A stretch of DNA of 61,815 bases from the NCBI GenBank assembly GCA_046291585.1, contig JBKBRT010000001.1, forward strand, positions 1 to 61,815, written 5' to 3'. The stretch is from Hyphomonas sp. (lineage in GTDB: Bacteria > Pseudomonadota > Alphaproteobacteria > Caulobacterales > Hyphomonadaceae). The notes below the pieces were generated by a model. It saw only the letters and a program-made list of their open reading frames with translations. It was not told where the DNA came from and ran no database searches. This document shows positions 8,691-33,225 of this stretch, piece by piece (position 1 is the stretch's first letter; each line of letters opens with the position of its first letter). Both the position numbers and the translations under genes were made by a program.

Positions 8691-8731
8691 GCGGATGTGG
8701 CGGAATTGGTAGACGCACTGGATTTAGGTTC
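8691..8731 (+). pseudogene. 5' half of the disrupted host tRNA-Leu(TAG) (attL)
   Basis: GCGGATGTGGCGGAATTGGTAGACGCACTGGATTTAGGTTC = acceptor 5' strand, D arm, anticodon loop; followed by unrelated AT-rich sequence; joins 33182-33225 to give an 85-nt cloverleaf. Confidence 0.93.
8721..8731 (+). repeat. attL core GATTTAGGTTC
   Basis: Identical to 33171-33181; centred on the 7-nt anticodon loop TTTAGGT. Confidence 0.92.
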
Positions 8732-8790
8732 TAATGTCTATAAAAATTTAACTATATTTTTCAATTAGTTACAGATTTACATAAACAGAC

Positions 8791-8821
8791 TGTGTCCAAA
8801 ACTGTGTCCAGCGATGTGTCT
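8791..8821 (+). repeat. Left integrase arm-type repeats (TGTGTCY x3)
   Basis: TGTGTCC at 8791 and 8803, TGTGTCT at 8815; same triplet at the right end. Confidence 0.75.
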
Positions 8822-9053
8822 GTTTTCAAGGTTTAACCCACGATGAGGCGGCGGCGCCAAAGTGTCTCGAAAGGGGGCTTTTGCAGCGGGAATCGTCGGG
8901 GCTTTAGCACGCGGTTTCCGAGCGTTTCAGAGTGGGTCAGCTGGTGCAGTTGAGGGCCTGTAAAGCAGGCTTGAGTGACGCCGCTCGAAACTGGCGCCAG
9001 CGGCATCCAAAAGCGGCGCATTTTGCCATTCAATGACCGAGTTGCTCCACCAT

Positions 9054-9078
9054 AAAAAAGGGTTGCGTATGCAACCCT
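9054..9078 (-). terminator. Putative Rho-independent terminator for minus-strand transcripts
   Basis: Minus strand reads AGGGTTGC-ATAC-GCAACCCT-TTTTT. Confidence 0.55.
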
Positions 9079-9322
9079 GCCTTCCGGCGAGGATGGGGGT
9101 AGCAAGCGCAAGGAGGCTCCGAACGAGGGTCCGCGCCGACAGGCGTGGAGACGTTTGGATGCCTTGCGCGCGCGAGGGGCAAAGCCCCTTAGCTTCGTGC
9201 GCGGCGTAGCCGCGATCCGAAAGCGCGAGGGATCGAAGCCGCATGGCCGAGCCCCGCCGCAGCCTTTGCGGCGAGGCTTGGTCCACGAGAGCCCGACCCG
9301 AAGGGGCGCGCCCAAGCGGTCG

Positions 9323-9619
9323 CTAGAACAGCGACAGTTGGGCATGGGCCTTCCAGTCGGATTTCTTGGCGGCTTCCGTTAGCCAGGCAAGAATATAAGC
9401 CCGCAGTTCTTGGACGTTTTCGACCTCTTTCAGGGGCAGGAAATGCGACTTGTAGCCCGTTTCCGATATCGGGTTCGGCGCACGGACGGGCTTGATGGTC
9501 TCAATCTCCATATGGGCGACATAGCCCAGGCCAGACCAGTCGGGGATGAAGGTGACTGACAGGGACAAGCCCTGCCAGTCGATCACTTCCTTGATGATGA
9601 TGTGTGATGCTTTGCTCAT
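9323..9619 (-). CDS. Small hypothetical protein ending in QLSLF (beta-clamp-binding motif)
   Basis: 98 aa, third gene of a compact operon; contains ISETGYKSHF; C-terminus AQLSLF. Confidence 0.75.
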   Translation of the reverse strand: MSKASHIIIKEVIDWQGLSLSVTFIPDWSGLGYVAHMEIETIKPVRAPNPISETGYKSHFLPLKEVENVQELRAYILAWLTEAAKKSDWKAHAQLSLF

Positions 9620-9627
9620 GGCTGGCC

Positions 9628-9966
9628 TCAATACTCAGAGGCCAGCATGATGGTCAGCACGCGGGTGGTGACATCTGGATTCGCAGGGTCTTCCGATCCG
9701 TAGCGAAGATCGCGGTCGTAGTAGTCGATCTTCCAGAAGACACGCTTGCCAGCGATATCGAAAGCACCGAAGTCGTGCTCGCCGTAGGGATCATTGTCCT
9801 CGGAGAAGGCCGAGAAAGTCTGAACGGCGCGGGTGGCGAGCAGCATGAAGTCGGGGCCTTGTGCCATGACGCCTGCCGTCATCATCCACTTCCCGCTGGA
9901 GATGCCAGCTTTGCGCATGGCGTCGTTGAGGTCGCGGATGCGATTTGCGGAGGAAAGAGTTGTCAT
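9628..9966 (-). CDS. DUF3768 family protein
   Basis: Characteristic DNDPYGEHDFG...FWKIDYYD...SEDPA.P.VT.RVLTIMLASEY. Confidence 0.88.
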   Translation of the reverse strand: MTTLSSANRIRDLNDAMRKAGISSGKWMMTAGVMAQGPDFMLLATRAVQTFSAFSEDNDPYGEHDFGAFDIAGKRVFWKIDYYDRDLRYGSEDPANPDVTTRVLTIMLASEY

Positions 9967-10190
9967 TGCTGCTCTCCTTCCACTTTCTCGGTAATGACGC
10001 GCAACATGACGCGGCCTTCACGTGGTATCGCATCCAACTGGATGCTGAAGCCCATGCCATCTTTGTTTGGCCATGCTGCACCAATCGGTGTCCATGTTGC
10101 CAGTTTGCCATCGCCGACGACGCGGTAGAGGCGGTGCGTGGGTTTGCGGCCTTGCGGCTGCTGCTGTTTGGGTTGAGGTTTCTTGGCCAT
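9963..10190 (-). CDS. Small hypothetical protein typical of mobile elements (WTPIGAAW family)
   Basis: 75 aa; strong RBS AAGGAG; WTPIGAAWPNKDGMGFSIQLDAIP motif; 4-bp overlap with the next gene. Confidence 0.78.
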   Translation of the reverse strand: MAKKPQPKQQQPQGRKPTHRLYRVVGDGKLATWTPIGAAWPNKDGMGFSIQLDAIPREGRVMLRVITEKVEGEQQ

Positions 10191-10196
10191 TTAAGG

Positions 10197-10246
10197 TCTC
10201 CTTGTTCTGGCCACGGACTATTCCGCGGCTTCATGGGAGCCAAGGA
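10197..10246 (-). promoter_or_regulatory. Structured leader motif, copy A
   Basis: TCCTTGGCTCCCATGAAGCCGCGGAATAGTCCGTGGCCAGAACAAGGAGA, similar to 27668-27718. Confidence 0.6.
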
Positions 10247-10554: not shown

Positions 10555-10908
10555 TTGGGGAATTGGATTGCAGCCATAGAAGGGATCATCGTTGCGGATG
10601 TCATCCGTTGGACGGAGGGCATCTATGAGAAACGCCGACGCAAGAAAGACAAACCCCGCCGCATCGGCGAGCGCCAAGTCACAGCGGAAGTTCTCGAAAC
10701 AACAAATGACGGATGGCTCAAGCTACTGGTTCGCGCATGCACGATCACCCAGGATGACTACGCAGGCAGCCGCCTCCCGATGCTGAACGCGGGGGACGAG
10801 ATCAAGCGGGCGCGTAAGACGGTTCAGCGCGGCAAAACAGAGCGCCTGCTTTGGAGTGACGAGACGGCCCGCAAGGAAGTTGATGCAACAAAACGGCATT
10901 CAAACTAG
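10555..10908 (+). CDS. Hypothetical basic protein
   Basis: 3' part of ORF 10321-10908 looks protein-like (DVIRWTE, VTAEV, RLLWSDE); TTG start after GCAGGGG, with TATAAT at ~10510; start uncertain. Confidence 0.5.
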   Translation: MGNWIAAIEGIIVADVIRWTEGIYEKRRRKKDKPRRIGERQVTAEVLETTNDGWLKLLVRACTITQDDYAGSRLPMLNAGDEIKRARKTVQRGKTERLLWSDETARKEVDATKRHSN

Positions 10909-13518
10909 CGATGGCTTGACTGCATTTTTTTGACGCTCACGGATTGAGTGAATCCAGTCTTCTAATGCTTTGACTTCATTTACGAGATCCTCGATCGAAA
11001 CTTGTTCTGGATTTAGAGCGTCCGCCGCCGAGTGAAGATCTTCGGATAGTCTCGATTGTGCACACATTACGATTTTAACATCTTCTTCCGTAAGCACACC
11101 AAGTCGGAACATGGAAGTGGGTTTTACCTTGTTGTCAAACCTCTCAAGGACTGGGCGAATATAATCGGAGATTGCCTGTTCCCAAGCGTCACGCAACTGA
11201 CCAATCGTGCCCTTGCAAAAGGTAGTGCGCCGAGTGTCGGTAAGCTTGTCGAAGTTGGGCTTTTCGGACTTGAGGGAGGACCGCAAGGCGTTGCACATCT
11301 CAAGACCAGACTTCGCTTTGTCGGGCAATTCATTCTCAATGTAGCCTGGCTTATCCTGCCGCCGTCTGACATTGCGAAAAGCGATGGGACGGTTTGCCTT
11401 ATCCGCCTCGCGGCGCAGCTCATATAGAAACACAAGATCATGAGTGAACACGACAACTTGTCGATGTTCTGCTTCTTCAACCAGCCGCGTTGCAACCGCG
11501 TTTCTGTGAACGTGGTCAAGCGACGACATTGGGTCATCAAAGACGATGCTGGAATAACGCTGCGCAGTTACTAATTCAGCAAGAAATGTGGCGAGTGCCA
11601 CGCACCTATGCTCGCCTTCGCTCAAAATCTCGCCAACTTTAGCGTCTGGTCGTTCTACCAAAGCCACGCGAAAATATGAAACTGCTTGTCGATCTTTTTC
11701 TTTGCGCAGCTCGACGGGCATTCGAGATAGCTTAAGCTTATCAATTTCCCTCGCAAATCGGCCTCGCAACGCATCTGTTACCATGCGGTCGGAAAGATCT
11801 TTGTTTTTGTCAGTGATCGGCTTTTTCGCTGTGGTTTTTAGCGCTGTCTTGATAGTGTCTATTTCCTTTAGGCGGGCGATATGGACCTTGATGTCCGCAA
11901 TCAAGGGCACAAGGGCAGCGCGATCTTTGAGTTCAACATATTCCGCTTTTAGAGCTTTGTAGGCGTCGCTTTGTGTGTCAGCCGATAACTGCGCAGCTCG
12001 CATCTTTAGGTCGGCGGCAAGAGCCGAGAGCGTTTCAATTGGATTGTCACTGAGTGGGTTAGGTTCACTTTTTCCTAGTACCATTGCTCGAAGACGCCAC
12101 AGCGCCATAACGAATGCGCGGCGAACTTTTCTAGCCAATGATGGGTCACCAATTTCGGTAACGACGAACTTGTATTGCTTCAGGATGTCAGTGCGTCGCA
12201 CTGCTTGTCTTCTCAACTCAGTGAGCGCAGCATCCAGGTTCGTACGCGCTGCAGCTTCCTCTTCCTTCGTCGAGCTTTTGACGAATGCCTCAAATGTCTG
12301 TTGGCGCGAGATTGCCTCCGCACCAAGCGACTGCTGACAAAGCACGCAAAGCGTTTCCGAGTCGCCAGAAGGAAATTGCTTTTCGGGATAAGCTACCGTA
12401 TTGGCGTAGTTTCGCGCCGCCTCCCACAATTTGAGCCAAGCCGCTTGTCCAACTTCTGGCAGGGGCGAGGCATTAAAAAGCTCTTGCGATGCGATCGATG
12501 CCGCTTTTGAAGCATTGTTGTGGTTCGTTCGCAGAGCGTCCAATTCAATGAATGCCTGAGGACTGGTAGCAGTGATGAGCCTGGCGAGTGATTCTCCTAC
12601 GCGTTCTATTTCGGCGCGATGGTTATCAAGCCTTGCGCCAGCGCGCTTTGGATCTTGTGCGAAATCAGCCTCTAGCGTCGCCAGTCGCGCAGCTTCCTGC
12701 TCACTGAGCGCAGCAAGTTTATCGAATTGTGGAATGTTGGACTTCGCATTTAGTTCGAAGAGATAGCTGCCAGCAGCTGTGTCTCTGCTTAACGACGGCG
12801 ACGAAATCAAAAGCGGCACTTGCTTTTCGAGCGCGGCAATCCTGCCTTCCAGTTCGATTTTGATGCGATCCGCAGCATCGGCCAATGACTCCATCAATCT
12901 CATTGGCCGAGGAATGTAAGCAACCTCGTTTGTGCTTTCGACATGTATGCTCGCGCTCCGCGAGTCGAATATGCTGATTGAGGGAAGATCGTCATGTGGC
13001 TTTCCATCAGGTGTCCAATCAAATTTCTCAATGTTCGGACCGCGAGCAAAGTTTATCTCAGCACTCTGTGGTGTATCAGTGGTGTCGACCAAATCTCGAT
13101 GTATTGAAAACTTTTCGTCTCGTGTTCGACAGGCATGCTTCAGTACGCGAACGTAACCCGACTTACCTGACCCATTGTCTCCATAAATCACTGTCAATCC
13201 TTGGGGTTCGAAGGATAGCTCTTGCTGGCTCGCAAGCGCATTGATAGCGATGGGGTTTTTTACAGAGACAAGTGAAATTGGCTCAGTCGTGCTGGCCTCT
13301 GCTACAATATGCGATTGTGATAGCGGAGCATGAGGGTGACTTGGGTCGAGGCATATCTCAGTCAGCTCGGATATAGCTTTTTCGTCAAGGCTTTCTCCAA
13401 CAATCAGACGGCGAAGTGCGTCTGTCTGCCATGCTGGTCGCTTTTCGGCCCAAACTACCAGGTCGGCAAGGGCGGCTTTCTCTGTTAGTGGTGCGGAATG
13501 CTTGGTCATTTGGCTCAT
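10900..13518 (-). CDS. SMC/Rad50-like ABC ATPase with zinc hook and HEPN-like C-terminus (RloC-like)
   Basis: 872 aa; Walker A GDNGSGKS, coiled coil with CVLC, signature LSEGE, Walker B IVFDDP, H-loop VFTHD; C-terminal LRDAWE...RLSEDLH. Confidence 0.8.
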   Translation of the reverse strand: MSQMTKHSAPLTEKAALADLVVWAEKRPAWQTDALRRLIVGESLDEKAISELTEICLDPSHPHAPLSQSHIVAEASTTEPISLVSVKNPIAINALASQQELSFEPQGLTVIYGDNGSGKSGYVRVLKHACRTRDEKFSIHRDLVDTTDTPQSAEINFARGPNIEKFDWTPDGKPHDDLPSISIFDSRSASIHVESTNEVAYIPRPMRLMESLADAADRIKIELEGRIAALEKQVPLLISSPSLSRDTAAGSYLFELNAKSNIPQFDKLAALSEQEAARLATLEADFAQDPKRAGARLDNHRAEIERVGESLARLITATSPQAFIELDALRTNHNNASKAASIASQELFNASPLPEVGQAAWLKLWEAARNYANTVAYPEKQFPSGDSETLCVLCQQSLGAEAISRQQTFEAFVKSSTKEEEAAARTNLDAALTELRRQAVRRTDILKQYKFVVTEIGDPSLARKVRRAFVMALWRLRAMVLGKSEPNPLSDNPIETLSALAADLKMRAAQLSADTQSDAYKALKAEYVELKDRAALVPLIADIKVHIARLKEIDTIKTALKTTAKKPITDKNKDLSDRMVTDALRGRFAREIDKLKLSRMPVELRKEKDRQAVSYFRVALVERPDAKVGEILSEGEHRCVALATFLAELVTAQRYSSIVFDDPMSSLDHVHRNAVATRLVEEAEHRQVVVFTHDLVFLYELRREADKANRPIAFRNVRRRQDKPGYIENELPDKAKSGLEMCNALRSSLKSEKPNFDKLTDTRRTTFCKGTIGQLRDAWEQAISDYIRPVLERFDNKVKPTSMFRLGVLTEEDVKIVMCAQSRLSEDLHSAADALNPEQVSIEDLVNEVKALEDWIHSIRERQKNAVKPSLV

Positions 13519-14714
13519 GCTCTGCGCTCCACCTTTATCAGGCGCGCGGTCATCGGATCATAAACGTATTTCGTGATAGTGCCGTCCTTTATGCGTTCGA
13601 CGGCTTCATCGACAACAAAAACTGGAACAAGAAACCACTCACGCGGAACGACAGGATTGCCAAAGCGATCCTTGATCTCGATGTCGAGCCTTGCGGGATC
13701 GAACACGCGATGGATGATGTTTTCCAGCTTCGTCCGATTGATGTTGAAAAGGTCGTATGTTGCTACGATCTCCACATCGGCCATCAAAAACGTTGGGTCG
13801 AGCTTGGCGTTGGCGAGGCGGCGTTTCACATCGCCACCCGTCACGCCAATTTTGTGAAGCACCTCGCGGTGCTGCGCCACGACTGGGTGGTCTGACTTGC
13901 TGCGCAAGACATAAATTGTGCCGCTGGCCGCGTCGTCATCGTCGGCTTCATCCGAAAACAGCGGGCCAGCTGAGGGCTCGGAAATGCGGCGGCTAGTTTC
14001 ATCTTTGTAAAGAGCACGCTGAAGCGAGCGGAGCAGAAGATCGCTTTCTGTAGCGTTGGAATAAATTACACGCAGGCGGGCATCTGTCTGTCCATTCGGG
14101 GCTTTAAACATTTCACCGACTTCGGCGACGTAGACGGTCTGCCCCCCTAGAACGAATAGCTCGCCTGCCTTGATGTCTGCTTTGAGAAATCCAGCGTCTT
14201 TTCTGATCTGGCGTGTGATCCGCGCGCCAGAATCCAACTCACGCTTAACGCTATCAAAAATTGGCTTGAACTTCTCAAAATCGGCGCAGGGCGTGCGGTT
14301 TGCAATATCCTCGGCTGCGCGCTTTTCAGCGGTCGTTCGCACATGCCGCAACTCTGTGATTGCTGCATCACCATCTGCGCCTTCAAGCGCGGCAGCGAGT
14401 TCATCTTCATCAATCTCATCCGACATGGCCGCCGCTGGCGCGTCGCCAAGCAAGCCCTGATGATCGAGGGGAAGTAAAATTGCTCGGCACTCCTCAAGAG
14501 TGCGCAGCCTGTCCAGGCGGACGGCATAGAGGCGCTCAAAGATGTCGCGATCTTCTCCATGTCGTGGGGCATGGCTATGCTTTTCGACGAAGCGCTGAAT
14601 TTCTTCGAAGCCCGCGATGATGCGTTCCTCCCGGGCAGAACGGCCTGACTTACGTTCGGGCTCATCAAAGTCCGCAAGCGCTTGCGCGAGTTCGTCGAGG
14701 TTGGGATCACTCAT
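13515..14714 (-). CDS. YeeC-like GIY-YIG (T5orf172) nuclease
   Basis: GTIYVLRS...HKIGVT...RR...LENIIHRVF...PREWF pattern; follows the YeeB-like helicase; start set at ATG 14714. Confidence 0.85.
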   Translation of the reverse strand: MSDPNLDELAQALADFDEPERKSGRSAREERIIAGFEEIQRFVEKHSHAPRHGEDRDIFERLYAVRLDRLRTLEECRAILLPLDHQGLLGDAPAAAMSDEIDEDELAAALEGADGDAAITELRHVRTTAEKRAAEDIANRTPCADFEKFKPIFDSVKRELDSGARITRQIRKDAGFLKADIKAGELFVLGGQTVYVAEVGEMFKAPNGQTDARLRVIYSNATESDLLLRSLQRALYKDETSRRISEPSAGPLFSDEADDDDAASGTIYVLRSKSDHPVVAQHREVLHKIGVTGGDVKRRLANAKLDPTFLMADVEIVATYDLFNINRTKLENIIHRVFDPARLDIEIKDRFGNPVVPREWFLVPVFVVDEAVERIKDGTITKYVYDPMTARLIKVERRA

Positions 14715-16755
14715 AGCGACCTTCCTTTCTGAAGCGCATAAATGCGGCGGCCCCTTCGGCCATGCGCTTTTCCCAGGCATCAGCGGAAGTCAGCGCGGGC
14801 AAACGTCCACGCTCCTTTTGGAAACGGAATGCCCGCACAGCAAGATCCTTGGCTTCCTCTGGAGAGAGGGCAGTGCGCTTCGCTGCAATCGCGGCCGCGA
14901 CCTGCTTCAAGCTTTCCTCACTCATTGTTTTTGCGAGGATTGAATAAGCTTCGCCGAACGGGTTGATCTGATCAATTAGATCGATATCGAGTTCCCGAAC
15001 GTCCATTGCGAACTTCCGTACACCGTCGATCAGCGCTCTGTTGGCCGACGGTTCGTCGTCACCAAGCGCAATCTTCTTTGCCTGCTGGGTCAGCGTAAGC
15101 GCGGCAATAGCATGTTGGCGGACAGCCTCCTGATCTTCGTCATCAAGTTCGGGGTACTTGTCTTTAATGATTTTGCCGAGGCGTACTTGCGTCAAATCCT
15201 GTGGGACCAGCTCTTCGTCGAACAAACCGCGTTCGATTGCAGTTTTGTCCTGCACGAACGCAGCGATCACCTCATTCAGGTCCTCCTTGCAAATGCGCGC
15301 AGCTTCCTTGCTTTTCGGTTCGGCAAGGCCGTTGATCTCGATCTGGAAGCGTCCGCTTTCCTCATTGAAGCCGACATTGCATTTCTTGGGATCGTAGCCA
15401 TCGTCGCCGTAGTCAAAGCCTGGGGCAGCGGTGTTGTTCGGGTTTTTAGGCTTGAACTCAAATCTTGGAGCAAGAACTTGCTCCATCAAAAGGCTGGCAG
15501 CGATGGCTTTCAGCGTATCGTTGACCGCTTCTGTCACGGCGCCCTCTGATGCATCGGGCTCGGCGATCAGGTTTGTGAAACGCGCGCGAGTCTTGCCTGG
15601 CGCATCGCGTGTCGCGCGCCCGATGATCTGTACGATTTCGGTCAGACTGGAGCGATAGCCAACAGTCAGTGCATGCTCGCACCAAATCCAGTCAAAGCCT
15701 TCTTTGGCCATGCCAAGAGCGATGATGATGTCTACATGATCGCGGTTGTTCTTTTGCGATGCGTCTTTGAGCGCAGCCGAGACCCGATCCCGCTTGGCGG
15801 GATCGTCATCAACAAGGTCGGCGATCCGCAGTTCGCGGTCGGCGGTTTTGACGAGCTGAAAACCAGTTACAGGGTCAGTGCCCTGCCACTCGCCAAGCGC
15901 CTCCAGGATGTGCTCAACTTCCCTGATCTTATCTTTCGTGCTCTCGCGCGAATTGACACTCGGTATGTGAACAATGGTCTTCTCTGATGGGTCGAGTACC
16001 TTGAGGATGTCATCGGCATATGAGCCCGAATAGAAGAAGTAGCCAATGTCGAGCAGCTTAAGGTGTTCATACCCGTTGAGCTGCTCATAGTAGGTGTACG
16101 TGACGGACTCGAACTTTGCTTCGTCTTGCGGCGCAAGCACAGGCACAGCGTCGCCACGGAAATACGAGCCCGTCATCGCCACAACGTGCACCTGGTCACG
16201 TGCCATGATATGGCCGAGGTGTTGGCCCAGCCTACTTTCGGGGTCTGCTGAAACGTGGTGGAACTCGTCTATCGCGATCAAGCGCTTATCGAACGCTTCA
16301 GCGCCCAGCCGATCCATCGCGAAGCGGAAGGTCGCGTGAGTGCAGACCAGGACTTTGTCTTCGCTCTTGAGAAAGGCCTCAACTGAATTGACCTTACCGC
16401 CATTGTCCGAGCCAGGCGCGTTGCAGAGATTCCATTTCGGCTCCACCCGCCAATCCGCCCAGAAGCCGTATTTCGTCAGAGGCTCATCATTGAAGCTGGC
16501 ACCGATGGACTTTTCAGGGACGACGATGATGGCCTGCTTGAGGTTCTGGTTGGCGAGCTTATCGAGCGCAATGAACATCAGTGCACGGCTCTTACCCGAT
16601 GCTGGCGGGGACTTGATCAGCAGATACTGCTCGCCCCGCTTTTCATACGCGCGCTCTTGCATTGGCCGCATACCGAGGAGGTTCGCCTTGGTGGACGCGC
16701 CACTACAGGAATACGAGACTGAAACGGACGGAACGTGGTTGGCTTTATCGGTCAT
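14707..16755 (-). CDS. YeeB-like superfamily 2 helicase/ATPase
   Basis: 682 aa; SPPASGKS, DEFHH, MTGS, KEGFD, QIIGRATR motifs. Confidence 0.88.
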   Translation of the reverse strand: MTDKANHVPSVSVSYSCSGASTKANLLGMRPMQERAYEKRGEQYLLIKSPPASGKSRALMFIALDKLANQNLKQAIIVVPEKSIGASFNDEPLTKYGFWADWRVEPKWNLCNAPGSDNGGKVNSVEAFLKSEDKVLVCTHATFRFAMDRLGAEAFDKRLIAIDEFHHVSADPESRLGQHLGHIMARDQVHVVAMTGSYFRGDAVPVLAPQDEAKFESVTYTYYEQLNGYEHLKLLDIGYFFYSGSYADDILKVLDPSEKTIVHIPSVNSRESTKDKIREVEHILEALGEWQGTDPVTGFQLVKTADRELRIADLVDDDPAKRDRVSAALKDASQKNNRDHVDIIIALGMAKEGFDWIWCEHALTVGYRSSLTEIVQIIGRATRDAPGKTRARFTNLIAEPDASEGAVTEAVNDTLKAIAASLLMEQVLAPRFEFKPKNPNNTAAPGFDYGDDGYDPKKCNVGFNEESGRFQIEINGLAEPKSKEAARICKEDLNEVIAAFVQDKTAIERGLFDEELVPQDLTQVRLGKIIKDKYPELDDEDQEAVRQHAIAALTLTQQAKKIALGDDEPSANRALIDGVRKFAMDVRELDIDLIDQINPFGEAYSILAKTMSEESLKQVAAAIAAKRTALSPEEAKDLAVRAFRFQKERGRLPALTSADAWEKRMAEGAAAFMRFRKEGRYE

Positions 16756-17537
16756 TTCTTACTCGTTGTTTGGTGTTGGGCAGGAGAGTCCTTCGCAGCA
16801 GCTTTTTCAAACCAGTCTGGTAGGTTGTTTATTTGTAATCCGAATACGTTCTCAGGACAGTCTTTCCAGAATTCAACGACGGCGTCCGAAAAATCCTGTA
16901 AATGCGCATCAGTCACCCTAAGGTGCGTGTGATCGCGATACTTCGCGTCACTTAACGCGGTGTCCATGCCGTCAAACGGATCGTCGAGGTAGTCGGGGAA
17001 TATCCTGCGCAATTCATCGAGCGACTTACCATCGCCATGCTTATAGACATTCACGACAAGGCGGCACGCATCGAGTAGCGCAAAGTAACTTTGCGCCTGC
17101 ACTTTCCAGCCCAGACATTCCAAAAATTCCATGACCTTCTTGAAGTCTGCGGCCCAGACGGCTGCTCCGAGATGTTCGCCTTTATGCCAATGTCGAGCTT
17201 GGCTCACGATCCAGTCGCGTAGCTGCTTGTCCCATTCGTGATAAATTCCCGCGACGACGCTTAAGCGCGTTTGCTCGCGCATATCGCTCAAGAGCTCGTA
17301 GAAATCTACGCCAGCTTGCTGAGCCGCATCGTAAAAATCGGAAGGATCATGCCGGTCTGGGTCAAAGTGGTGCTTGTGCAGTTTCAACCATTCCTCCGAA
17401 GCGCGCTCGGCTTCAACTTCAATGTCATCGAAGCGCGAAAGCAGACGCTTTCGCGCTTGCTCCACATAAAAAACGTGCCCATCGATCAGCGACTGCCTGA
17501 ATGGTCCCCACATCTGAAACAGAGCAATGTCGGTCAT
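16752..17537 (-). CDS. Hypothetical helical protein, possible HEPN-like RNase
   Basis: 261 aa; 4-bp overlaps on both sides; YHEWDKQL and RLVVNVYKHGDG segments. Confidence 0.7.
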   Translation of the reverse strand: MTDIALFQMWGPFRQSLIDGHVFYVEQARKRLLSRFDDIEVEAERASEEWLKLHKHHFDPDRHDPSDFYDAAQQAGVDFYELLSDMREQTRLSVVAGIYHEWDKQLRDWIVSQARHWHKGEHLGAAVWAADFKKVMEFLECLGWKVQAQSYFALLDACRLVVNVYKHGDGKSLDELRRIFPDYLDDPFDGMDTALSDAKYRDHTHLRVTDAHLQDFSDAVVEFWKDCPENVFGLQINNLPDWFEKAAAKDSPAQHQTTSKK

Positions 17538-23228: not shown

Positions 23229-23584
23229 TTCGTGGGCACCCCCAGAACGGCCAGAATGGCCTTGCGAAGATCATCATGGGCGGCGAGCGCCGCTTGCAGC
23301 CGCGCCTCATCATACTCGTTTCGAGCATTGAGGCGGTGGGCGATCTGGTTGAGGTTGTTCCCGACACGGCCAACCTCGCCAACGAGGCGGCGCAGCATTT
23401 TGGCGTCGATGGGAACGCGGCGCTGGGCGCGCGGACCTGGATCGCCAAGCGCCGCAGCGCGCATGAACGCTCCTACGCTCATACCTCGGAGCGCGGAGAG
23501 TTCATCAATGGCGGCGCGCTCGTCGGGTGTGACACGTACCGTGATCGTGTCACCCCTGCGCCGCTTTTCGCTGCCACTCGTCAT
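23225..23584 (-). CDS. mobC: MobC relaxosome accessory (ribbon-helix-helix) protein
   Basis: ITVRVTPDE..I, GMSVGAFMR, GRVGNNLNQIAH; RBS GGGAGG before ATG 23584. Confidence 0.9.
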   Translation of the reverse strand: MTSGSEKRRRGDTITVRVTPDERAAIDELSALRGMSVGAFMRAAALGDPGPRAQRRVPIDAKMLRRLVGEVGRVGNNLNQIAHRLNARNEYDEARLQAALAAHDDLRKAILAVLGVPTK

Positions 23585-23640
23585 GCGCACCTCCCATTCG
23601 TATGGCGCGGCAGTCTGCGGAGGCTTTGCCTCGGCTCGGT

Positions 23641-23925
23641 CCAGCACGGTGCTGGCCCTGGTTCCAAGGGCGGGCAGCCTCCTTGGTCAGGCTCCAAGGG
23701 CTCGAAGGCCCATGGTCGTCGCTGGGGACGAAACCCCAGTCTGGCATCCAAAGGGCACGAAGGCTCTTTGGTCGTGGTTCCAAGGGGCGCGACAGCCCCT
23801 TGTGTCGTTGCTGGGGGCGAAACCCCAGTCAGGTTTCCAAAGGGCGCGAAGGCTCTTTGGTCGGGTGCACGGGGCGAAGCTCCTGCGCTCGGGGATGCAA
23901 CGGGGTATGCAATGACCCCTTGCCA
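23641..23925 (+). repeat. Tandem array of ~10 hairpins with an 89-bp higher-order repeat
   Basis: Hairpins at 23664, 23694, 23722, 23748, 23781, 23811, 23837, each with GTC at or just after its 3' base; 23716-23774 nearly identical to 23805-23863. Confidence 0.85.
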
Positions 23926-23960
23926 AGCCAGCCAATCGTAAACGATTGGCGGCGCGCGGT
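23896..23960. other. Candidate oriT
   Basis: Perfect inverted repeat GCCAATCGT-AA-ACGATTGGC (23931-23950) in the non-coding gap upstream of mobC-relaxase; nic site not identified. Confidence 0.5.
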
Positions 23961-24059
23961 GTGACCGCGCATGGCTTGCAGACTCCCGAATTACCTCAGT
24001 ATAGCAGAAAATCATTAACGATTGCCCGTCCCGCACTGCCGCAAAGAGCGCTGCGTTGA

Positions 24060-27718: not shown

Positions 27719-27724
27719 AACACC

Positions 27725-27925: not shown

Positions 27926-27956
27926 GGGCTTGTGAAACTCGGTGGCCGTAGTTCGT

Positions 27957-30179
27957 TTAAGTGCGAACTGGGATATCGATCGTTGGGCGCAATGGCTCCA
28001 GTTGCGTGGAAAACCGTCGGACGACCTGATCATACAAGTCCGCAATATGTTTGGCATGGACACTAACAACAAGCGCATACGGTAGACTGTGAGTTGGCGC
28101 AAAGTTTCGCCCTTCAAGACGGGCGTTGTAGTGAATGTCAAAGCACGGATTTCTTAGGCTGCTTCCTCTGAAGCGACGTGAAGCATGAAGGCAGTTCTCC
28201 CACTTCCATGCATCTCTTCGAAGATCCTCTTCAGTCATACCCGAATTTGCCGCGCCAAAGAAACTCTTTGTGTCTGGATGGACTTGGTTGTCTCGTGAGA
28301 ATTTTTGATCGTTGGGGCGGAAGGATACTTCAAGCCCCGCACGTGTGTAGTTTCCAGGGTGATGTGGATCTGTTTGAGACTTGTAACAAATTGTAGCGGT
28401 GATCTCGGCGTTTCCTGAAATCTCGCCAACAGGCAAAGGAATTGGCGCCCTAATATACTTCGCAGGCGAGATTGTTCCTTGGTAGACGACACGAATTGTA
28501 TCGTCGTCGCAGATCACGATGTCCTCCAACGATCTCGAAATCCGTCCCCACCCAACTTCTTCAGCGGGCTGATTGCCCCTCTCTGCACGGTGGATCAGCA
28601 ATGCGCGAATAGCCAATAAGCTGAGGTTGGAGCCGAAATGAGCTCGTACACCTGCGCCGAGACGTAAGGTGCTCGGCGTGGCGAAAGAAGTTCCACCTGT
28701 GGAGTCAAGTGTCGGTTGATCTCCTTGGCCGACAACGAGGAAAGGCCGCTGGATCGAACCACCGAAATCGACAAGGTCGGGCTTCATCAACCCTGGGCTT
28801 CGTCCTGGCCCAACTGAGCTATAAGGGGCACGCCGCCAACCCGCATCGGGAGTATCGCAAGCGCCAATCGCTAATGCGTTTACACAATCTGCAGGCACCT
28901 GAATTCGATTAAGTCCAAGAGTAGCATCCCCGTCTCCGTCGTTTCCAACTGCTATCGCAGCGAGGGTATTCGTGCGCGCAAAACGATCATCAAGAACCGC
29001 CGTCCATGCATGCACATCATCATCCTCAATAGGGAGACGAGGGCCGAGGCTAAGGTTTACGAAGTCGTAGTCGATGTCAGAGAGCACTCGATCAATGCGA
29101 TCAAGAACATCGAAGAGCTCATGCGGATTTTGACCTGGCTCGTTGTCCAGAACTCGATAATGATCGACATTTGAGTAGGGCCTCGGAAGCGGCTGTGTCG
29201 GATCTATGTGACCAAACAGAAAGGCAGAGGTCACTGCTGTTCCGTGTTTCAAGAATTCTGTATGTGCCGGACCGAGATTTGGCCCATCTACAGGCCGCGC
29301 CCATGGCGTAAGCGGGTGATTATCCGGTAGCCCTCCATCAAAAATCGCTGCTCTGATGTTTGGATCAAGCGCCCCTTCGACCGGAAGCTGAAGCATCTGT
29401 GTCGGAATAGAGGACGAGCGTATCGTAGGCCGTAGCATGCGCAACCGAGGCATTTCGCGGATTGCGCGAACTACTGAGAAGACTGCGATCTCATCTGCCA
29501 ACTCTGCAGGAGCTTCAACTTCTAGAAAGCACAACCCACCAGCATAGAATCTGCGGTCAAGACGAGATTCGACACCCACATCCTGCAGGTACTTGCGAAA
29601 CTCACCTAAAATAAAATTCTCGCCCAATAGCTCATCAACATGGAGCACTACTTCAAAGACACCTGTTCCAGAGGAAGGCAGCGTGCCTTTGATCTTTGTT
29701 TCTACCGTAGGCGCACTGATGTCTTCCAAGGTAATGAGGTCTTTTCCCTCAGGCGTGGCCTCAGCCCAGCTAGGAAGCTGACTGCTCCATCGACGAATCG
29801 CGTCACGTGGACCAATTACAAAAAGCTCTGTAGTCAGCGTTTCAACAGGCTCACGATCCCGCGAGCGTTTTTCGGGCTTAACTCGCCGCGGCTTACTGCC
29901 TACGGCTGTCATTCCGGCGGCCTTCAAAAGGTCATGGGGAAAGTAAGACTTAGCAATGTACTCTGGGTTCAGTGTAAGTGAAACGACTGCTTGGTCATTT
30001 GGGCAGGCGTTCGAAGGCAATGCGTCGATTTGCGAGACCGCTTTGGTTAGACGCGGGACAAGTCGTGACTGCGCTTCAGCAAACGAATACGGCGCCACTT
30101 TGGGCCCTCCACCACCGCGAACAGTGATGTCTTCGGCGAGCCTCTCGCCCTTACCCAGAAGGAAGTTGCGCTTTGTCAC
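27957..30179 (-). CDS. S8 subtilisin-like serine protease (IetS-like)
   Basis: 740 aa; triad motifs IFDGG, KHGTAV, GTSFATP; NLSLG, AVGNDG, KPDLV; no signal peptide. Confidence 0.92.
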   Translation of the reverse strand: MTKRNFLLGKGERLAEDITVRGGGGPKVAPYSFAEAQSRLVPRLTKAVSQIDALPSNACPNDQAVVSLTLNPEYIAKSYFPHDLLKAAGMTAVGSKPRRVKPEKRSRDREPVETLTTELFVIGPRDAIRRWSSQLPSWAEATPEGKDLITLEDISAPTVETKIKGTLPSSGTGVFEVVLHVDELLGENFILGEFRKYLQDVGVESRLDRRFYAGGLCFLEVEAPAELADEIAVFSVVRAIREMPRLRMLRPTIRSSSIPTQMLQLPVEGALDPNIRAAIFDGGLPDNHPLTPWARPVDGPNLGPAHTEFLKHGTAVTSAFLFGHIDPTQPLPRPYSNVDHYRVLDNEPGQNPHELFDVLDRIDRVLSDIDYDFVNLSLGPRLPIEDDDVHAWTAVLDDRFARTNTLAAIAVGNDGDGDATLGLNRIQVPADCVNALAIGACDTPDAGWRRAPYSSVGPGRSPGLMKPDLVDFGGSIQRPFLVVGQGDQPTLDSTGGTSFATPSTLRLGAGVRAHFGSNLSLLAIRALLIHRAERGNQPAEEVGWGRISRSLEDIVICDDDTIRVVYQGTISPAKYIRAPIPLPVGEISGNAEITATICYKSQTDPHHPGNYTRAGLEVSFRPNDQKFSRDNQVHPDTKSFFGAANSGMTEEDLRRDAWKWENCLHASRRFRGSSLRNPCFDIHYNARLEGRNFAPTHSLPYALVVSVHAKHIADLYDQVVRRFSTQLEPLRPTIDIPVRT

Positions 30180-31306
30180 TTTTTACCTGCCGATCTTTTT
30201 GCTGGACGCGGGCTTATAGTCCGTGTTCGGATGGTTTCCCTAGCTACCCCTGTTAATTCATGCGCTCGACGTTGTGAAACCAGCCCCCCATCCACTAGAG
30301 ATGCGGCAAGCTGAATTTTGTCTTGCTTTGAAAGGTCGTCCGTTTTGATAAGCGCTGATAGTTGTTCATCCAGCGCTTTGCCATTGATCGCCGCCGCTCG
30401 CCTTGCAGCACGCATGTCGCGCTCAAGGTCGCTGAACGAATGACCACGCAGAGCCAGAGCTAGTATGCTGGCCCATTGCCCTGCATGTGGAGTGCTCTTG
30501 CTGAGTTCTGCTTCAATAAACGCCCGCGCAGCATCAACCGTAGGCAGAGGGAATTCTACAGCAACTTCAAAACGGCGCCATATTGCTGGATCAAGCAAAT
30601 CAGCATGGTTTGTTGCCGCGACAAGCAAGCCAGTCGATGGCCAATCATCTAATTGCTGGATAAGAACGGTTACAAGCCGCTTGAGCTCACCGATTTCACC
30701 ACGATCATCGCGTCTTTTTGCTATGGCGTCGAGTTCGTCCAACAAAAGGACGCATTCGATTGACTTGGCATAGTCCAATACATGCCGCAGGTTTGTGCCA
30801 GTTCGTCCCAAATAGCTGCTCATCACGGCAGCAAGGTCCAAGACGACAAGGGGGCGCTTGAGTTCGCGGGCGAGCCAGCGCGCCGCCATGGTTTTACCTA
30901 CGCCTGGCGGTCCAGTGAACAATGCAGTTCTAGTTGGCTCAAGTCCCGCCTTGAGCAAGGCGCTAGCGTGAGCGCGCTCATCGACAAGTCGCTTCAGAAC
31001 ACCTGCAACGCCATCGCTGAAAACAGGCTCATGATCGAGCATGGGACTTTCTTCGAAGCGCAACAGGTGAAAGCGTGTATCGGCATCCACGGGTAGAGCG
31101 ACATCGGCATTGCGTCGGAGCGGTGATGATCGAGTTGGTGACTCCCTCAGGAGGTCGATCAAGGCATCCGCCAACTCTGGCGCTGAGGACCGATAACGTT
31201 TCGCCGCGCGCTGCACGAAAACTTGAACGTCCTGAGCTCTGCCCGATAACGCAAGCCGCGCCATATGGACCAGATCAGTTTCAACGCTCTTTTTTTCTTC
31301 CGCCAT
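30176..31306 (-). CDS. AAA+ ATPase (IetA-like) with C-terminal HTH-like segment
   Basis: GPPGVGKT, LLLDELD, AATNH, LDPAIWRRF; GTGA overlap with the S8 gene; start set at ATG 31306. Confidence 0.92.
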   Translation of the reverse strand: MAEEKKSVETDLVHMARLALSGRAQDVQVFVQRAAKRYRSSAPELADALIDLLRESPTRSSPLRRNADVALPVDADTRFHLLRFEESPMLDHEPVFSDGVAGVLKRLVDERAHASALLKAGLEPTRTALFTGPPGVGKTMAARWLARELKRPLVVLDLAAVMSSYLGRTGTNLRHVLDYAKSIECVLLLDELDAIAKRRDDRGEIGELKRLVTVLIQQLDDWPSTGLLVAATNHADLLDPAIWRRFEVAVEFPLPTVDAARAFIEAELSKSTPHAGQWASILALALRGHSFSDLERDMRAARRAAAINGKALDEQLSALIKTDDLSKQDKIQLAASLVDGGLVSQRRAHELTGVARETIRTRTISPRPAKRSAGKK

Positions 31307-31319
31307 TCGAGAAAGCCCT

Positions 31320-31367
31320 CTGATTCTCAATAAGAATCAGTATGGCAGGCTATGGAAGAATTTGCAA
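31320..31367 (-). promoter_or_regulatory. sigma70 promoter and operator-like palindrome of the ATPase-protease operon
   Basis: Minus strand TTGCAA-17 bp-CATACT; inverted repeat CTGATTCT-N5-AGAATCAG (31320-31340) over the predicted start site. Confidence 0.65.
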
Positions 31368-31608
31368 CATTAGAGGACAGATTCTTCCATAATGCGCATA
31401 TCTATTTGATTATATACGTATTTATTGTGGACAACTTTTGGTGACGTGCGCTGTCGCTCGTCAAAGTCCATTAGCGATGGCCGATCCCGTTCGGGACAAC
31501 TCTGGCCACCATGCGCCGCGTTCGCGGGGCATTTCGCACACTTGGGTCGCACGGTGCCGCGCTCTGCCCTGCGTGAGAAGCAGTCCTGCTTCTTGAAGGA
31601 AATATGAG

Positions 31609-31693
31609 TGGTGCGGATAGAGGGACTCGAACCCACACACCTTGCGGCGACGGTACCTAAAACCGTTGCGTCTACCAATTCCGCCATATCCGC
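31609..31693 (-). tRNA. Element-encoded intact tRNA-Leu(TAG)
   Basis: GCGGATATGGCGGAATTGGTAGACGCAACGGTTTTAGGTACCGTCGCCGCAAGGTGTGTGGGTTCGAGTCCCTCTATCCGCACCA; 85-nt cloverleaf with long variable arm, encoded CCA, one T-T mismatch in the T stem. Confidence 0.95.
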
Positions 31694-31764
31694 ACGTCGG
31701 AATACTCAGTCTAGGATATGGCGAAACTTTTCGCCACGGAGAAATGCGGCATCATTTGCCAGAA

Positions 31765-33054
31765 TCAGTGATGATCTGGGCGCGCCTCGGGCTTGCCCGT
31801 TGTGCGGGGCTTGGCTGGCGCGCGCCGTGCGCGCGGACGCTTCACATTGATGGCGCCAGCATCCAAGCGATCCTTGATGTGGGCAGCATAAAACTCTTCG
31901 ATCATTTTGACGCTGGTGCGGCAGTTGTTTGCGATCTGGTGAATGTTCGCGCCCTCCATGAGGCGCGTAGAAATGTAGGTATGGCGCAGGCTGTAGGCCG
32001 TGCGCTGGCGACCGTCGCGGTCGAATTTAAGTCCTTCTTCTTGAAGTATCTGATTGAATAAGTGCCGCTTGAACTTGCGGAACACGAGTTGATCGGGTGG
32101 CAGTTCAGGGCGAGGGGAGCCTGCGGGCTGTTGATCGTTCAACTCCTTTTCACGCCGCGCCCGAAGTCGGCGGAAAGGCTCCACGGCGCCAGGCATGCTT
32201 TTGCAGTAGCCGACCCCAGTTTTGCCGCGCACATCAATGACGAGGATTGTCTCCTTCGTTGCGGCATCATCTTCAATACTCACATCGCGGAACTCCAGCC
32301 GCGAGGCTTCATCGGGTCGTAGTCCAGTGTTGGCCATGAACAGCACAAAATCGTGCATGTCCTCATAGTGGCTTTTCCAGCCAGGACGCCCTCCATCGGT
32401 GATCCGCTTGCGGGTCGCCGTATAGAGCTGCTTGTACTCTTCGGGTGAGAACCAAGCGTGGCGGCCTTTCTTTCCCTGTGTCATGTAGGGCTGGGAGAGG
32501 CTGGGCACGAAGGGAATCCAGCCCATGCCCTCTGCGTACTTCAAGACTTGGCGGATAATGACGATTTCCTGAGTCATTGTACTGCGGGCGGGTTGCCGCC
32601 CTTGTTGAGCAGGTTGGTCACCCTGCGCAGGTTTTGCAGTCTTTGCCATAAAGTCTTCGGCCCGCTTGACGCGGTAGGCTTGCACCATTCCTCGGTTGAT
32701 TTCTGAGAGCGCCTTCTCTGCGAAGAAGGGGAGGATGTGTACCTTAAGGCGAAGCTCCACCATTGCGACGTACTGCGGGCTGCGCGTCGTGGACGCGAGC
32801 ACGCGGATTTCGCGCACATAATGCTCGGCGGCTTCTTTGAATTTGCGTTCCTGCTTGATGATTTCGCCACGGCGCAGCTTGCCGCGCAGGTCGAGATACC
32901 ATTCCTCAGCAACGTCCTTGGCGCGGTCCAGATCTTGCTCCCGCGTGGACTCCCTGTAGCGCTTGCCGCCGACCCGCGCAGAGCACTGCCAGACGCGGCT
33001 CTGGGGGCGTCGGTAAACCTGCAATCTGCCATCAAACATCTGGTGTGTGGTCAC
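31765..33054 (-). CDS. Tyrosine recombinase / integrase
   Basis: NTGLRPDE, RGKTG, YSLRHTY, MIEEFYA catalytic motifs; N-terminal arm-binding-like beta domain; adjacent to attR. Confidence 0.93.
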   Translation of the reverse strand: MTTHQMFDGRLQVYRRPQSRVWQCSARVGGKRYRESTREQDLDRAKDVAEEWYLDLRGKLRRGEIIKQERKFKEAAEHYVREIRVLASTTRSPQYVAMVELRLKVHILPFFAEKALSEINRGMVQAYRVKRAEDFMAKTAKPAQGDQPAQQGRQPARSTMTQEIVIIRQVLKYAEGMGWIPFVPSLSQPYMTQGKKGRHAWFSPEEYKQLYTATRKRITDGGRPGWKSHYEDMHDFVLFMANTGLRPDEASRLEFRDVSIEDDAATKETILVIDVRGKTGVGYCKSMPGAVEPFRRLRARREKELNDQQPAGSPRPELPPDQLVFRKFKRHLFNQILQEEGLKFDRDGRQRTAYSLRHTYISTRLMEGANIHQIANNCRTSVKMIEEFYAAHIKDRLDAGAINVKRPRARRAPAKPRTTGKPEARPDHH

Positions 33055-33065
33055 GGCTTTCTACC

Positions 33066-33093
33066 TGTGTCCGAGTGTGTCCAAACTGTGTCT
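33066..33093 (+). repeat. Right integrase arm-type repeats (TGTGTCY x3)
   Basis: TGTGTCC at 33066 and 33076, TGTGTCT at 33087, directly upstream of the integrase start. Confidence 0.75.
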
Positions 33094-33170
33094 AGGGCTT
33101 ATAACCCTAGTATAACAAGAAAATCCTTGTTTTTAAACGGGATTCTTGTTACCTATTGGCGAATCTACGA

Positions 33171-33181
33171 GATTTAGGTTC
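33171..33181 (+). repeat. attR core GATTTAGGTTC
   Basis: Identical to 8721-8731. Confidence 0.92.
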
Positions 33182-33225
33182 CAGCGCCGCAAGGTGTGAA
33201 GGTTCGAGTCCTTTCATCCGCACCA
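33171..33225 (+). pseudogene. 3' half of the disrupted host tRNA-Leu(TAG) (attR)
   Basis: GATTTAGGTTCCAGCGCCGCAAGGTGTGAAGGTTCGAGTCCTTTCATCCGCACCA; CATCCGC pairs with GCGGATG at 8691 and TCCAG with CTGGA; no 5' half upstream. Confidence 0.93.

What the first reader, a model, noticed from the sequence alone, without database searches (positions are those of the whole stretch)
8691..33225. Mobilizable element that destroys its target tRNA-Leu(TAG) and supplies a complete replacement gene
Seen: the host tRNA is cut at the anticodon loop (5' half 8691-8731, 3' half 33171-33225) with only 11 bp duplicated, and neither junction rebuilds a tRNA. An intact 85-nt tRNA with the same TAG anticodon sits inside the element directly downstream of the integrase, on the same strand. 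Known: tRNA-targeting integrases normally restore the gene by carrying its 3' part in attP; complementation by an element-encoded tRNA is known from some actinobacteriophages, but I do not know of it in an alphaproteobacterial mobilizable defence island. Inference: integrase plus tRNA form an integration-complementation module. If this isoacceptor is single-copy, CUA decoding depends on the element, so partial deletions are counter-selected and only precise excision is tolerated.
Basis: partly seen in the sequence, partly recalled or inferred. Interest (0 to 1): 0.92.

Follow-up and report, generated by a model that had tools for sequence, protein, structure and literature searches.

The report
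Mobile island replaces tRNA it breaks
A 24-kb piece of foreign DNA carrying anti-phage-type and mobilisation genes sits in the middle of this bacterium's leucine tRNA(UAG) gene, leaves it in two halves and carries its own complete copy, which the cell likely needs; the trick is known from phages, but here a likely non-phage integrase family uses it in dozens of genomes and on three different leucine tRNAs.

Summary
Confirmed. The host tRNA-Leu(TAG) is split in its anticodon loop with an 11-bp duplication, and neither end forms a tRNA. The element's own gene (31693-31609) is the only intact Leu(TAG) in this 85%-complete assembly. Three genus relatives carry the rejoined gene letter for letter.

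It is a family trait. Among 122 loci (window included), 70 of 77 evaluable split targets have a downstream tRNA-Leu with the matching anticodon (TAG, CAA, or TAA with a group I intron); 0 of 10 restoring loci do. One mobilisation backbone occurs with TAG, TAA and CAA modules.

The principle is published: actinophage tRNA-dependent lysogeny, and Sinorhizobium prophages at this same tRNA. This scan had already found the intron-bearing TAA/CAA forms on other DNA. New here are the intron-less TAG clade on a non-phage mobilisable element, the module swap, and replacement genes that never keep the host core (0 of 25), possibly avoiding their own integrase (uncertain).

Correction: the tRNA should protect only itself, not the cargo; a 1-kb remnant with no integrase keeps the tRNA. 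Expression and essentiality are untested.

The parts
8691..8731 (+). Orphaned 5' half of the host tRNA-Leu(TAG), ending just past the anticodon loop (left junction); 11-bp core at 8721-8731, 7-nt loop at 8723-8729
   Evidence: rejoined gene identical to intact genes in G394, G755, G015
8791..8821 (+). Three direct TGTGTCY repeats (8791, 8803, 8815), predicted arm-type integrase sites
   Evidence: homologous left junctions carry them at +68/69 and +80/81 from the loop
9628..9966 (-). DUF3768 protein, one of several small ORFs (9323-10190) at the left end
   Evidence: Pfam PF12599; homologues also in TAG-type elements of G965 and G981
10900..13518 (-). AAA/SMC-like ATPase, candidate defence protein PDC-S06
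   Evidence: PADLOC E 2e-179; 77% identical copy in the CAA-type element of G736
13515..21372 (-). Restriction-like operon: MmeI-family methyltransferase (18586-21372), PDC-S11/NucS-like protein (17534-18589), unknown (16752-17537), helicase (14707-16755), T5orf172 protein (13515-14780)
   Evidence: the YeeA/YeeB/YeeC label comes from earlier scan notes and was not tested here
21801..26669 (-). Mobilisation module: MobA/VirD2-type relaxase (21801-23228), MobC/NikA (23225-23647), coupling protein (24060-26669); no mating-pair genes found
   Evidence: 94% nucleotide identity over 5,729 bp with the TAA-type element of G364 and about 71% with G736
27957..31330 (-). IetA-like AAA ATPase (30176-31330) and IetS-like S8 protease (27957-30179), candidate defence / toxin-antitoxin pair
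   Evidence: PADLOC IetA E 2e-77, IetS E 2e-44; below the NCBIfam equivalog cut-offs
31609..31693 (-). Element-borne complete tRNA-Leu(TAG) with encoded CCA; same 7-nt anticodon loop as the host gene, different anticodon stem (T31-A39 for A31-T39)
31765..33054 (-). Tyrosine integrase, 429 aa, intact reading frame
   Evidence: PHROG_1 E 1e-30, weak PF00589; R246, K278, R357, H358, Y389 invariant in 23 aligned homologues (their catalytic role is assigned from general knowledge)
33066..33093 (+). Three direct TGTGTCY repeats (33066, 33076, 33087), predicted arm-type sites
   Evidence: at least one site at about -97 or -86 from the loop in 14 of 15 TAG-clade right junctions printed; genome background 0.09 per kb
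33171..33225 (+). Orphaned 3' half of the host tRNA-Leu(TAG) with CCA (right junction); 11-bp core at 33171-33181

Best explanation
This is a 24.4-kb island with integrase, relaxase, coupling-protein and defence-type genes that lies in the anticodon loop of the host tRNA-Leu(TAG) gene, restores neither half and carries a complete gene with the same anticodon, which likely supplies the lost tRNA after what was likely integrase-catalysed insertion. Shown: the split, the 11-bp core, the intact internal gene, the empty site in relatives, and the family-wide coupling of split target and cognate tRNA. Inferred steps: (1) the element arrives, probably by relaxase-dependent transfer through another element's mating apparatus, and circularises; (2) the integrase binds TGTGTCY arm sites on both sides of a short core and exchanges strands across the 7-bp anticodon loop, as lambda-type integrases do; (3) because attP holds no tRNA half, the host gene is destroyed; (4) the internal gene is transcribed and charged and reads CUA, which no other Leu tRNA in this assembly reads under standard wobble, so it is needed from the moment of integration; (5) precise excision would rebuild the host gene. 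In the circle, arm sites, core, integrase and tRNA form one block of about 1.7 kb, and this block appears to be swapped as a unit. The likely gain is host range: a short core needs no match to each host's acceptor and anticodon stems. The tRNA secures its own retention, not that of the cargo.
For: Window anatomy. Empty site in G394; identical intact genes in 3 of 29 genus loci. Single copy is the rule: 33 of 35 matching genus genomes and 123 of 127 matching class genomes have one match. CTA occurs in 557 of 1,579 long ORFs of G000 (mechanical ORF calls). Family survey of 122 loci: 83 split; of 77 evaluable, 70 have a full downstream tRNA-Leu with the target's anticodon (15 TAG, 24 CAA, 31 TAA), 2 have one cut by the contig end, 5 have none, 0 have a mismatched anticodon; 0 of 10 evaluable restoring loci have one. 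At an equal 1.1-kb window: 67 of 77 against 0 of 10. Restoring loci without the tRNA fall in three separate places of the tree. In 6 of 7 near-complete genomes with a TAG-type element the internal gene is the only intact Leu(TAG) found; 5 of 5 CAA and 5 of 5 TAA genomes tested show only the half and the internal gene. One backbone with three modules: window TAG, G364 TAA+intron, G736 CAA. The internal gene scores like the host's other Leu tRNAs (55.1 against 52-60 bits). The same logic is shown experimentally for phage Fionnbharth (PMC10865867).
Against: No expression, charging, excision or transfer data. A consensus scan finds no sigma-70 promoter before the internal gene; 17 of 26 homologous upstream regions show a TATA hexamer just upstream by eye, but the window has a variant. 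G000 is 85% complete, so a second copy could be unassembled. G772 has a second intact gene. Five split loci lack a replacement, two of them with 10 kb of downstream DNA held (L039, L093). No excisionase and no oriT were identified. Loci are related, so counts overstate independence. The host-range gain is inference only.
Confidence: 0.85

Rival explanations
1. Add-on to the main reading: the replacement gene is also recoded at the integrase core (31:39 pair or loop in TAG elements, group I intron in TAA elements) so that the integrase cannot use it, which would prevent self-recombination and loss of the last working copy.
For: 0 of 25 TAG-clade internal genes (window included) keep the host-type A-loop-T arm; they use five other arm types. 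That arm is in 13 of 26 intact class-sample genes and 34 of 35 matching genus genomes (G746 has it only in the split half). Both loop-flanking bases differ from the host in 6 of 6 elements with both halves compared. All 31 split-TAA loci with a full internal gene have an intron in the anticodon (Rfam RF00028 hit in 1 of the 3 intron loci that ARAGORN and Rfam both saw with an intact exon pair plus L003, i.e. 1 of 4).
Against: 6 of 22 intron-less CAA internal genes keep the host's 9 core bases. The window's internal gene keeps the whole 7-nt loop. The element side of junctions tolerates C, G or T next to the loop (L064, L239, L242, L022) and A on the other side (L272), and L005's host has a G-C arm. 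Five arm types are few independent events; each also occurs in ordinary host genes. Fionnbharth's secondary sites keep only 3 core bases.
Confidence: 0.35
2. The internal tRNA is a passenger, or serves codon supply or anti-defence; the host survives the split through a second copy or by relaxed wobble.
For: CTA is 6.9% of Leu codons in 11 element genes against 1.2% in the genome's long ORFs. G772 has a second copy; five split loci lack the tRNA. G000 is incomplete.
Against: The anticodon tracks the split target in 70 of 70 full cases, and the gene is absent from all 10 restoring loci, four of which target Leu(TAA) too. A remnant without integrase keeps it.
Confidence: 0.08
3. The element was a normal restoring island whose tRNA fragment decayed or was rearranged after insertion, with the internal gene being a displaced copy of the host's own.
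For: Restoring members exist in the same integrase family (11 of 122 loci); some junctions share longer cores (19 bp in G669).
Against: Arm sites lie at fixed distances from the loop in many hosts, leaving no room for a lost fragment; the internal gene differs from the host gene at 12 of 85 positions and keeps both stems paired; the layout recurs across the TAG clade (SH-aLRT 100).
Confidence: 0.03
4. Assembly artefact, or the two halves are transcribed apart and joined in trans as a split tRNA.
For: G000 is a fragmented assembly; tRNA genes are break points in metagenome graphs.
Against: Logan contigs agree with 0 differences and bridge the left junction; the layout recurs on single contigs in G912, G913, G965, G981; a complete gene is present, so trans-joining is not needed, and it is not known in bacteria (recalled).
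Confidence: 0.03

Closest known systems
tRNA-dependent lysogeny of actinobacteriophages (Fionnbharth, clusters K4/K6/L, Gaia; Guerrero-Bustamante and Hatfull 2024, PMC10865867; read: first 10,000 characters, sections 10 and 11, passages)
   Same: Tyrosine integrase with arm sites, ~10-bp core in a tRNA gene, no rebuilt tRNA, cognate tRNA on the element; Gaia has tRNA-Leu(CAA) downstream of int; restoring and non-restoring relatives coexist.
   Different: Here a non-phage element with relaxase, coupling protein and defence cargo in Alphaproteobacteria; the integrase has no close match among 50,697 phage records (one weak hit); three Leu isoacceptors, one with a group I intron; no experiments here. 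'Genomic island' and 'proteobacteria' do not occur in that paper's text.
Sinorhizobium meliloti prophages similar to vB_MloP_Lo5R7ANS in strains AK21 and RU11/001 (PMC11476347; read: sections 7 and 15, passages)
   Same: Same class of host, same target isoacceptor tRNA-Leu(UAG), gene inactivated in its central part and replaced by a diverged element-borne copy.
   Different: Two intact prophages, described by sequence only; integrases said to resemble that phage's. The paper reports no genomic island with this behaviour in the parts read.
Canonical tRNA-targeting islands and prophages (attP carries a tRNA fragment; described in PMC10865867 introduction and PMC11476347)
   Same: Tyrosine integrase next to one junction, tRNA gene target; 11 of 122 loci of this family are of this type.
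   Different: This element carries no fragment and leaves the gene split.
[quoted passage not shown]
   Same: The TAA sister clade's internal genes carry an intron after the wobble U; two CAA loci have a C before the apparent splice site, like Leu.3Cg.
   Different: That preprint does not link the introns to integrases or split host genes in its text; the window's own tRNA has no intron.

Membership tests
tRNA-dependent lysogeny (PMC10865867) | Tyrosine-family integrase acting at an attB in a host tRNA gene | tested here: met
   junctions (activity itself not tested)
tRNA-dependent lysogeny (PMC10865867) | Short (~10 bp) common core; no functional tRNA rebuilt at either junction | tested here: met
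   11 bp; no tRNA call at either junction
tRNA-dependent lysogeny (PMC10865867) | [quoted passage not shown] | tested here: met
tRNA-dependent lysogeny (PMC10865867) | Disrupted tRNA is essential and the element's tRNA is required for survival | not testable with these tools
   indirect only: sole intact copy in G000 and in 6 of 7 other genomes
tRNA-dependent lysogeny (PMC10865867) | The element is a temperate phage | tested here: not met
   No virion or repressor family among the ORFs scanned; relaxase and coupling protein instead. It works like the system but is not a member.
Integrative mobilisable element (definition recalled) | Integrase and att junctions | tested here: met
Integrative mobilisable element (definition recalled) | Relaxase and/or coupling protein but no mating-pair (VirB4/T4SS) genes | tested here: met
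   PF03432, PF21983, PF10412/PF02534 hits; no mating-pair family among the ORFs scanned
Integrative mobilisable element (definition recalled) | oriT, excision and transfer by a helper element | not testable with these tools
   oriT and excisionase not identified; 94% identical backbone in another species of the genus is indirect
Canonical tRNA-restoring island | attP carries the tRNA fragment that restores the gene | tested here: not met

The most novel reading that the evidence does not exclude
A widespread non-phage integrase family works through interchangeable attP-integrase-tRNA cassettes that destroy a host tRNA-Leu gene and install a replacement built to be invisible to their own integrase (stem or loop recoding for TAG, a self-splicing intron for TAA). 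Over time this acts as a ratchet that swaps native tRNA-Leu genes for foreign ones and spreads tRNA introns, leaving tRNA-only scars.
Probability: 0.35. Interest if true: 0.75.

Novelty: new variant of a known kind. Interest (0 to 1): 0.52.

Why it matters
It extends tRNA-dependent integration from phages to mobilisable defence islands and shows it as the majority state of one integrase family (83 split against 11 restoring loci among 94 classified). Such islands would be missed or mis-bounded by island finders that expect a restored tRNA gene (inference). The authors of the phage study left open how common the strategy is and which state came first; this family, with TAG, CAA, TAA and restoring members and one backbone carrying three modules, makes that testable. 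If the replacement genes resist their own integrase, that gives a selective reason for group I introns in proteobacterial tRNA-Leu genes. A 1.7-kb attP-int-tRNA block could also serve as a self-selecting integration tool for alphaproteobacteria.

Tried and rejected
Viral contigs: the single-protein scan found no relative; the alignment scan found 12 loci, 3 of them at 44% identity or more. Phage records: 1 weak hit of 50,697. Plasmids: 23 records, 5 covering 80% or more of the protein; not followed up. Forty relatives searched with the integrase gave 2 other genomes with a match, none in the genus. Public runs: no RNA holder listed, so nothing on expression. Contig depths of X1 are slightly higher on the flanks (29, 33.5) than on the element (24.7, 25.7), but the tool warns that these are no share of cells; no contig with the exact empty site appeared in the rows shown. 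Free-energy folding gave no cloverleaf for either junction, but did not give the standard D and T arms for the intact gene either, so it is uninformative. Promoter and terminator scan: none. Excisionase search among small ORFs and an Atlas search of the 219-aa ORF: nothing usable. Paper searches without a relevant hit: (0 papers; only PMC10865867; 3 listings, not read; 10 listings on tRNA essentiality, not read), so essentiality of Leu(UAG) rests on wobble rules. PMC12429752 was seen as passages only. Supplements of PMC11476347 and of the Williams preprint were not seen and may list further cases; most subscription journals are outside the library. Rejected: protection of cargo by the tRNA (G746 remnant), decay of a restoring island, misassembly, trans-joined tRNA.
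Full report
OBSERVATION. The window (G000:C126) holds the first 41 nt of a tRNA-Leu gene at 8691-8731 and the last 55 nt at 33171-33225, both on +. They share 11 bp, GATTTAGGTTC, centred on the anticodon loop; this is the longest shared stretch and occurs nowhere else in the assembly. Rejoined in a script they give a normal 85-nt Leu(TAG). ARAGORN and Rfam find one tRNA in the window, 31693-31609 (-), Leu(TAG), and none at the junctions. It is 73 of 85 identical to the rejoined gene, lies 71 nt behind the integrase on the same strand, and is the only intact Leu(TAG) among the 37 tRNAs ARAGORN finds in G000; Rfam agrees. G000 is 85% complete. The insert is 56.3% GC against 60.4% in the flanks.

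EMPTY SITE AND ASSEMBLY. Of 40 genus relatives, 35 match a Leu(TAG) pattern and 33 match once. Among 29 of these loci, G394, G755 and G015 carry a gene identical to the rejoined halves, and in G394 the window's left flank (7140-8522) and right flank (33171-34691) are contiguous around it. Logan contigs of run X1, which may be the source sample, match without differences and bridge the left junction; the right one falls one letter short of the bridging bar. The host is an alphaproteobacterium; the element's relaxase and coupling protein cluster with proteins named from Hyphomonas, which suggests but does not prove the genus.

ANATOMY. From the right junction inwards, on the minus strand: integrase (PHROG_1; invariant R, K, R-H, Y), tRNA, IetA/IetS-like pair, coupling protein, MobC, relaxase, an MmeI-family methyltransferase operon with PDC-S11, helicase and T5orf172 genes, PDC-S06 and small ORFs. 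No virion, mating-pair or excisionase family was found among the ORFs scanned. Three direct TGTGTCY repeats lie inside each junction (8791/8803/8815 and 33066/33076/33087); 9 occur in the whole element against 0.09 per kb in the genome. Homologous junctions have them at about -97/-86 and +68/+80 from the loop. I read them as arm-type sites around a short core, with the 7-bp loop as the exchange region (inference from lambda-type integrases).

FAMILY SURVEY. The integrase has 6,345 relatives among 7,996 candidates scored. I gathered 136 loci (the metagenome scan kept the best 80 of 572 relatives from 15 of 64 parts) and kept 122: those at 40% identity or more, less 4 duplicates; the window itself and some near-identical loci remain. 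At the integrase-proximal junction 83 show half a tRNA-Leu gene, 11 an intact tRNA (4 Leu-TAA, 5 Met, 1 Tyr, 1 Lys) and 28 could not be classified. I set two states by hand (L110, L014) and read three intron-bearing genes that ARAGORN mis-spliced as TAA (L024, L027, L046). Of 77 split loci with enough downstream DNA, 70 have a full tRNA-Leu with the target's anticodon (15 TAG, 24 CAA of which 2 have introns, 31 TAA all with an intron), 2 have one cut by the contig end and 5 have none; no anticodon is mismatched. None of 10 evaluable restoring loci has one. With an equal 1.1-kb window the counts are 67 of 77 against 0 of 10 (its Fisher p of 5e-8 overstates, since kin are not independent). The restoring loci without tRNA fall in three places of the tree. 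The TAG loci form one clade (20 rows, SH-aLRT 100, quick tree, midpoint root) in which the target is inverted relative to the integrase. Rfam confirmed a group I intron in L011, 1 of the 4 intron loci given.

SINGLE-COPY TEST IN OTHER GENOMES. Seven of 401 genomes of a related family carry a TAG-type integrase. In G912, G913, G965 and G981 both halves and the internal gene lie on one contig, 21-31 kb apart; in these and in G918 and G843 the internal gene is the only intact Leu(TAG) found; G772 has a second intact gene. Five CAA-type and five TAA-type genomes, five of them single contigs, each show just two pattern matches, the half and the internal gene. In a class-wide sample 127 of 250 genomes matched a strict pattern and 123 matched once (this count includes the unpublished G601 and G444). 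CTA is rare (1.2% of Leu codons) but present in 557 of 1,579 long ORFs; by standard wobble only the UAG tRNA reads it (established knowledge).

MODULE SWAP. The relaxase was found in 2 of 150 family genomes. G364 shares 5,729 bp at 94% with the window (22159-27887) but carries a 47%-identical integrase, a split Leu(TAA) and an intron-bearing replacement. G736 shares the backbone at about 71% and PDC-S06 at 77%, with a split Leu(CAA) and an intron-less CAA replacement. So target, integrase and tRNA change together on one backbone. In a circle, arm sites, core, integrase and tRNA would be one block of about 1.7 kb.

WHAT THE tRNA PROTECTS. G746 has the same host gene split by an insert of about 1 kb that holds a replacement Leu(TAG) and one ORF; no integrase of this family was found there, and it lacks the TGTGTCY sites, so it may come from another family. 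It shows that everything but the tRNA can be absent.

POSSIBLE SELF-IMMUNITY. Host halves in the TAG clade nearly all read A-TTTAGGT-T; none of 25 internal genes does (18, 7), and they use five other arm types. The host-type arm is in 13 of 26 intact genes among 30 class loci fetched (includes unpublished G601), and 73 of 131 class matches begin it, by my hand count. Both loop-flanking bases differ in 6 of 6 host/internal pairs. Against: 6 of 22 intron-less CAA genes keep the host's 9 core bases; element-side flanks vary; L005's host has a G-C arm; the window's internal gene keeps the whole loop; and five types are few events. I give immunity 0.35. The idea for the intron case also stands in earlier scan notes, which I saw after forming it and which are not independent evidence.

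EXPRESSION. Not shown. The internal gene has encoded CCA, a discriminator A and a long variable arm, and scores like the host's other Leu tRNAs. Its T-stem U-U mismatch also occurs in native host halves (L008, L009). The consensus scan found no promoter; 17 of 26 homologous upstream regions have a TATA hexamer just before the gene by eye, while the window and L242 have CCTAGAC there.

COMPARISON WITH THE KNOWN. Guerrero-Bustamante and Hatfull (PMC10865867) showed the mechanism in actinophages, with 8-17-bp cores, and name Lactobacillus prophage Lj965 as an earlier case. PMC11476347 reports two S. meliloti prophages that inactivate and replace tRNA-Leu(UAG). The element meets three sequence criteria of tRNA-dependent lysogeny but is not a phage, so it works like it without being a member. 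I found no paper on a non-phage mobilisable element of this kind in searches, within a library that lacks most subscription journals and with supplements unseen. Williams 2020 lists the intron classes without linking them to integrases. Earlier agents of this scan reported the intron-bearing TAA/CAA forms in at least five other genomes and a serine-integrase TAG case; none listed was this intron-less tyrosine-integrase TAG clade or the backbone swap.

VERDICT. Real and well supported; a new variant of a known kind. Complementation 0.85; immunity 0.35; interest 0.52.

Noticed in passing
L214 640-1763 (G746:C48): A ~1-kb insert splits the same host Leu(TAG) gene and holds only a same-strand replacement tRNA (C31-G39 arm) and one ORF; 16-bp duplication, no TGTGTCY sites, no integrase of this family in the genome.
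   Followed up: partly
G913:C1:1030400-1032604 (L248, L250); G666:C45:211-3405 (L175, L176): Two different tRNA-Leu(TAG) 5' halves in tandem, 2.2 and 3.2 kb apart, each followed by arm-type repeats: perhaps a junction carried over from a former host or a stacked satellite element.
   Followed up: no
window 31719-31736: Perfect 8-bp inverted repeat with a 2-nt spacer between the integrase stop and the tRNA, over the likely promoter: possible operator or terminator.
   Followed up: no
L206 and others against L209, L215, L221 and the window: The host Leu(TAG) gene points the opposite way relative to the flanking NAD(P)H-hydrate repair gene in most genus relatives compared with G000, G394, G755 and G015, which also have the GNAT gene next to it.
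   Followed up: no
L067, L079 (CAA with C before the apparent splice site); L023 (intron after U33): Element-borne Leu(CAA) genes with introns at two positions; the first resembles the Leu.3Cg class whose splicing Williams 2020 calls untested.
   Followed up: partly
L121, L126 (G229, G296); G061, G281: Two related integrase genes in tandem between the split host half and the intron-bearing replacement tRNA.
   Followed up: no
L011 11621-15173; window 27957-31330: An AAA ATPase plus S8 protease pair sits directly behind the replacement tRNA in both a TAG-type and a TAA-type element, so this position may be a cargo hotspot.
   Followed up: no
L005 13501-13585: A second, degenerate copy of the internal Leu(TAG) gene, inverted, 2 kb downstream of the first.
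   Followed up: no
L087 ~2640-2720; L133 ~2840-3110: A Leu(TAA)-type 3' half or intron-bearing remnant directly behind an internal Leu(CAA) gene: traces of module replacement.
   Followed up: no
window 10900-13518: The PDC-S06-like gene has 15 CTA among 90 Leu codons, far above the genome's 1.2%.
   Followed up: no
G000:C221:61-150: Weak Rfam tRNA hit with a GGG anticodon that ARAGORN misses; looks like a Pro(GGG) gene with a foreign or damaged 5' part.
   Followed up: no
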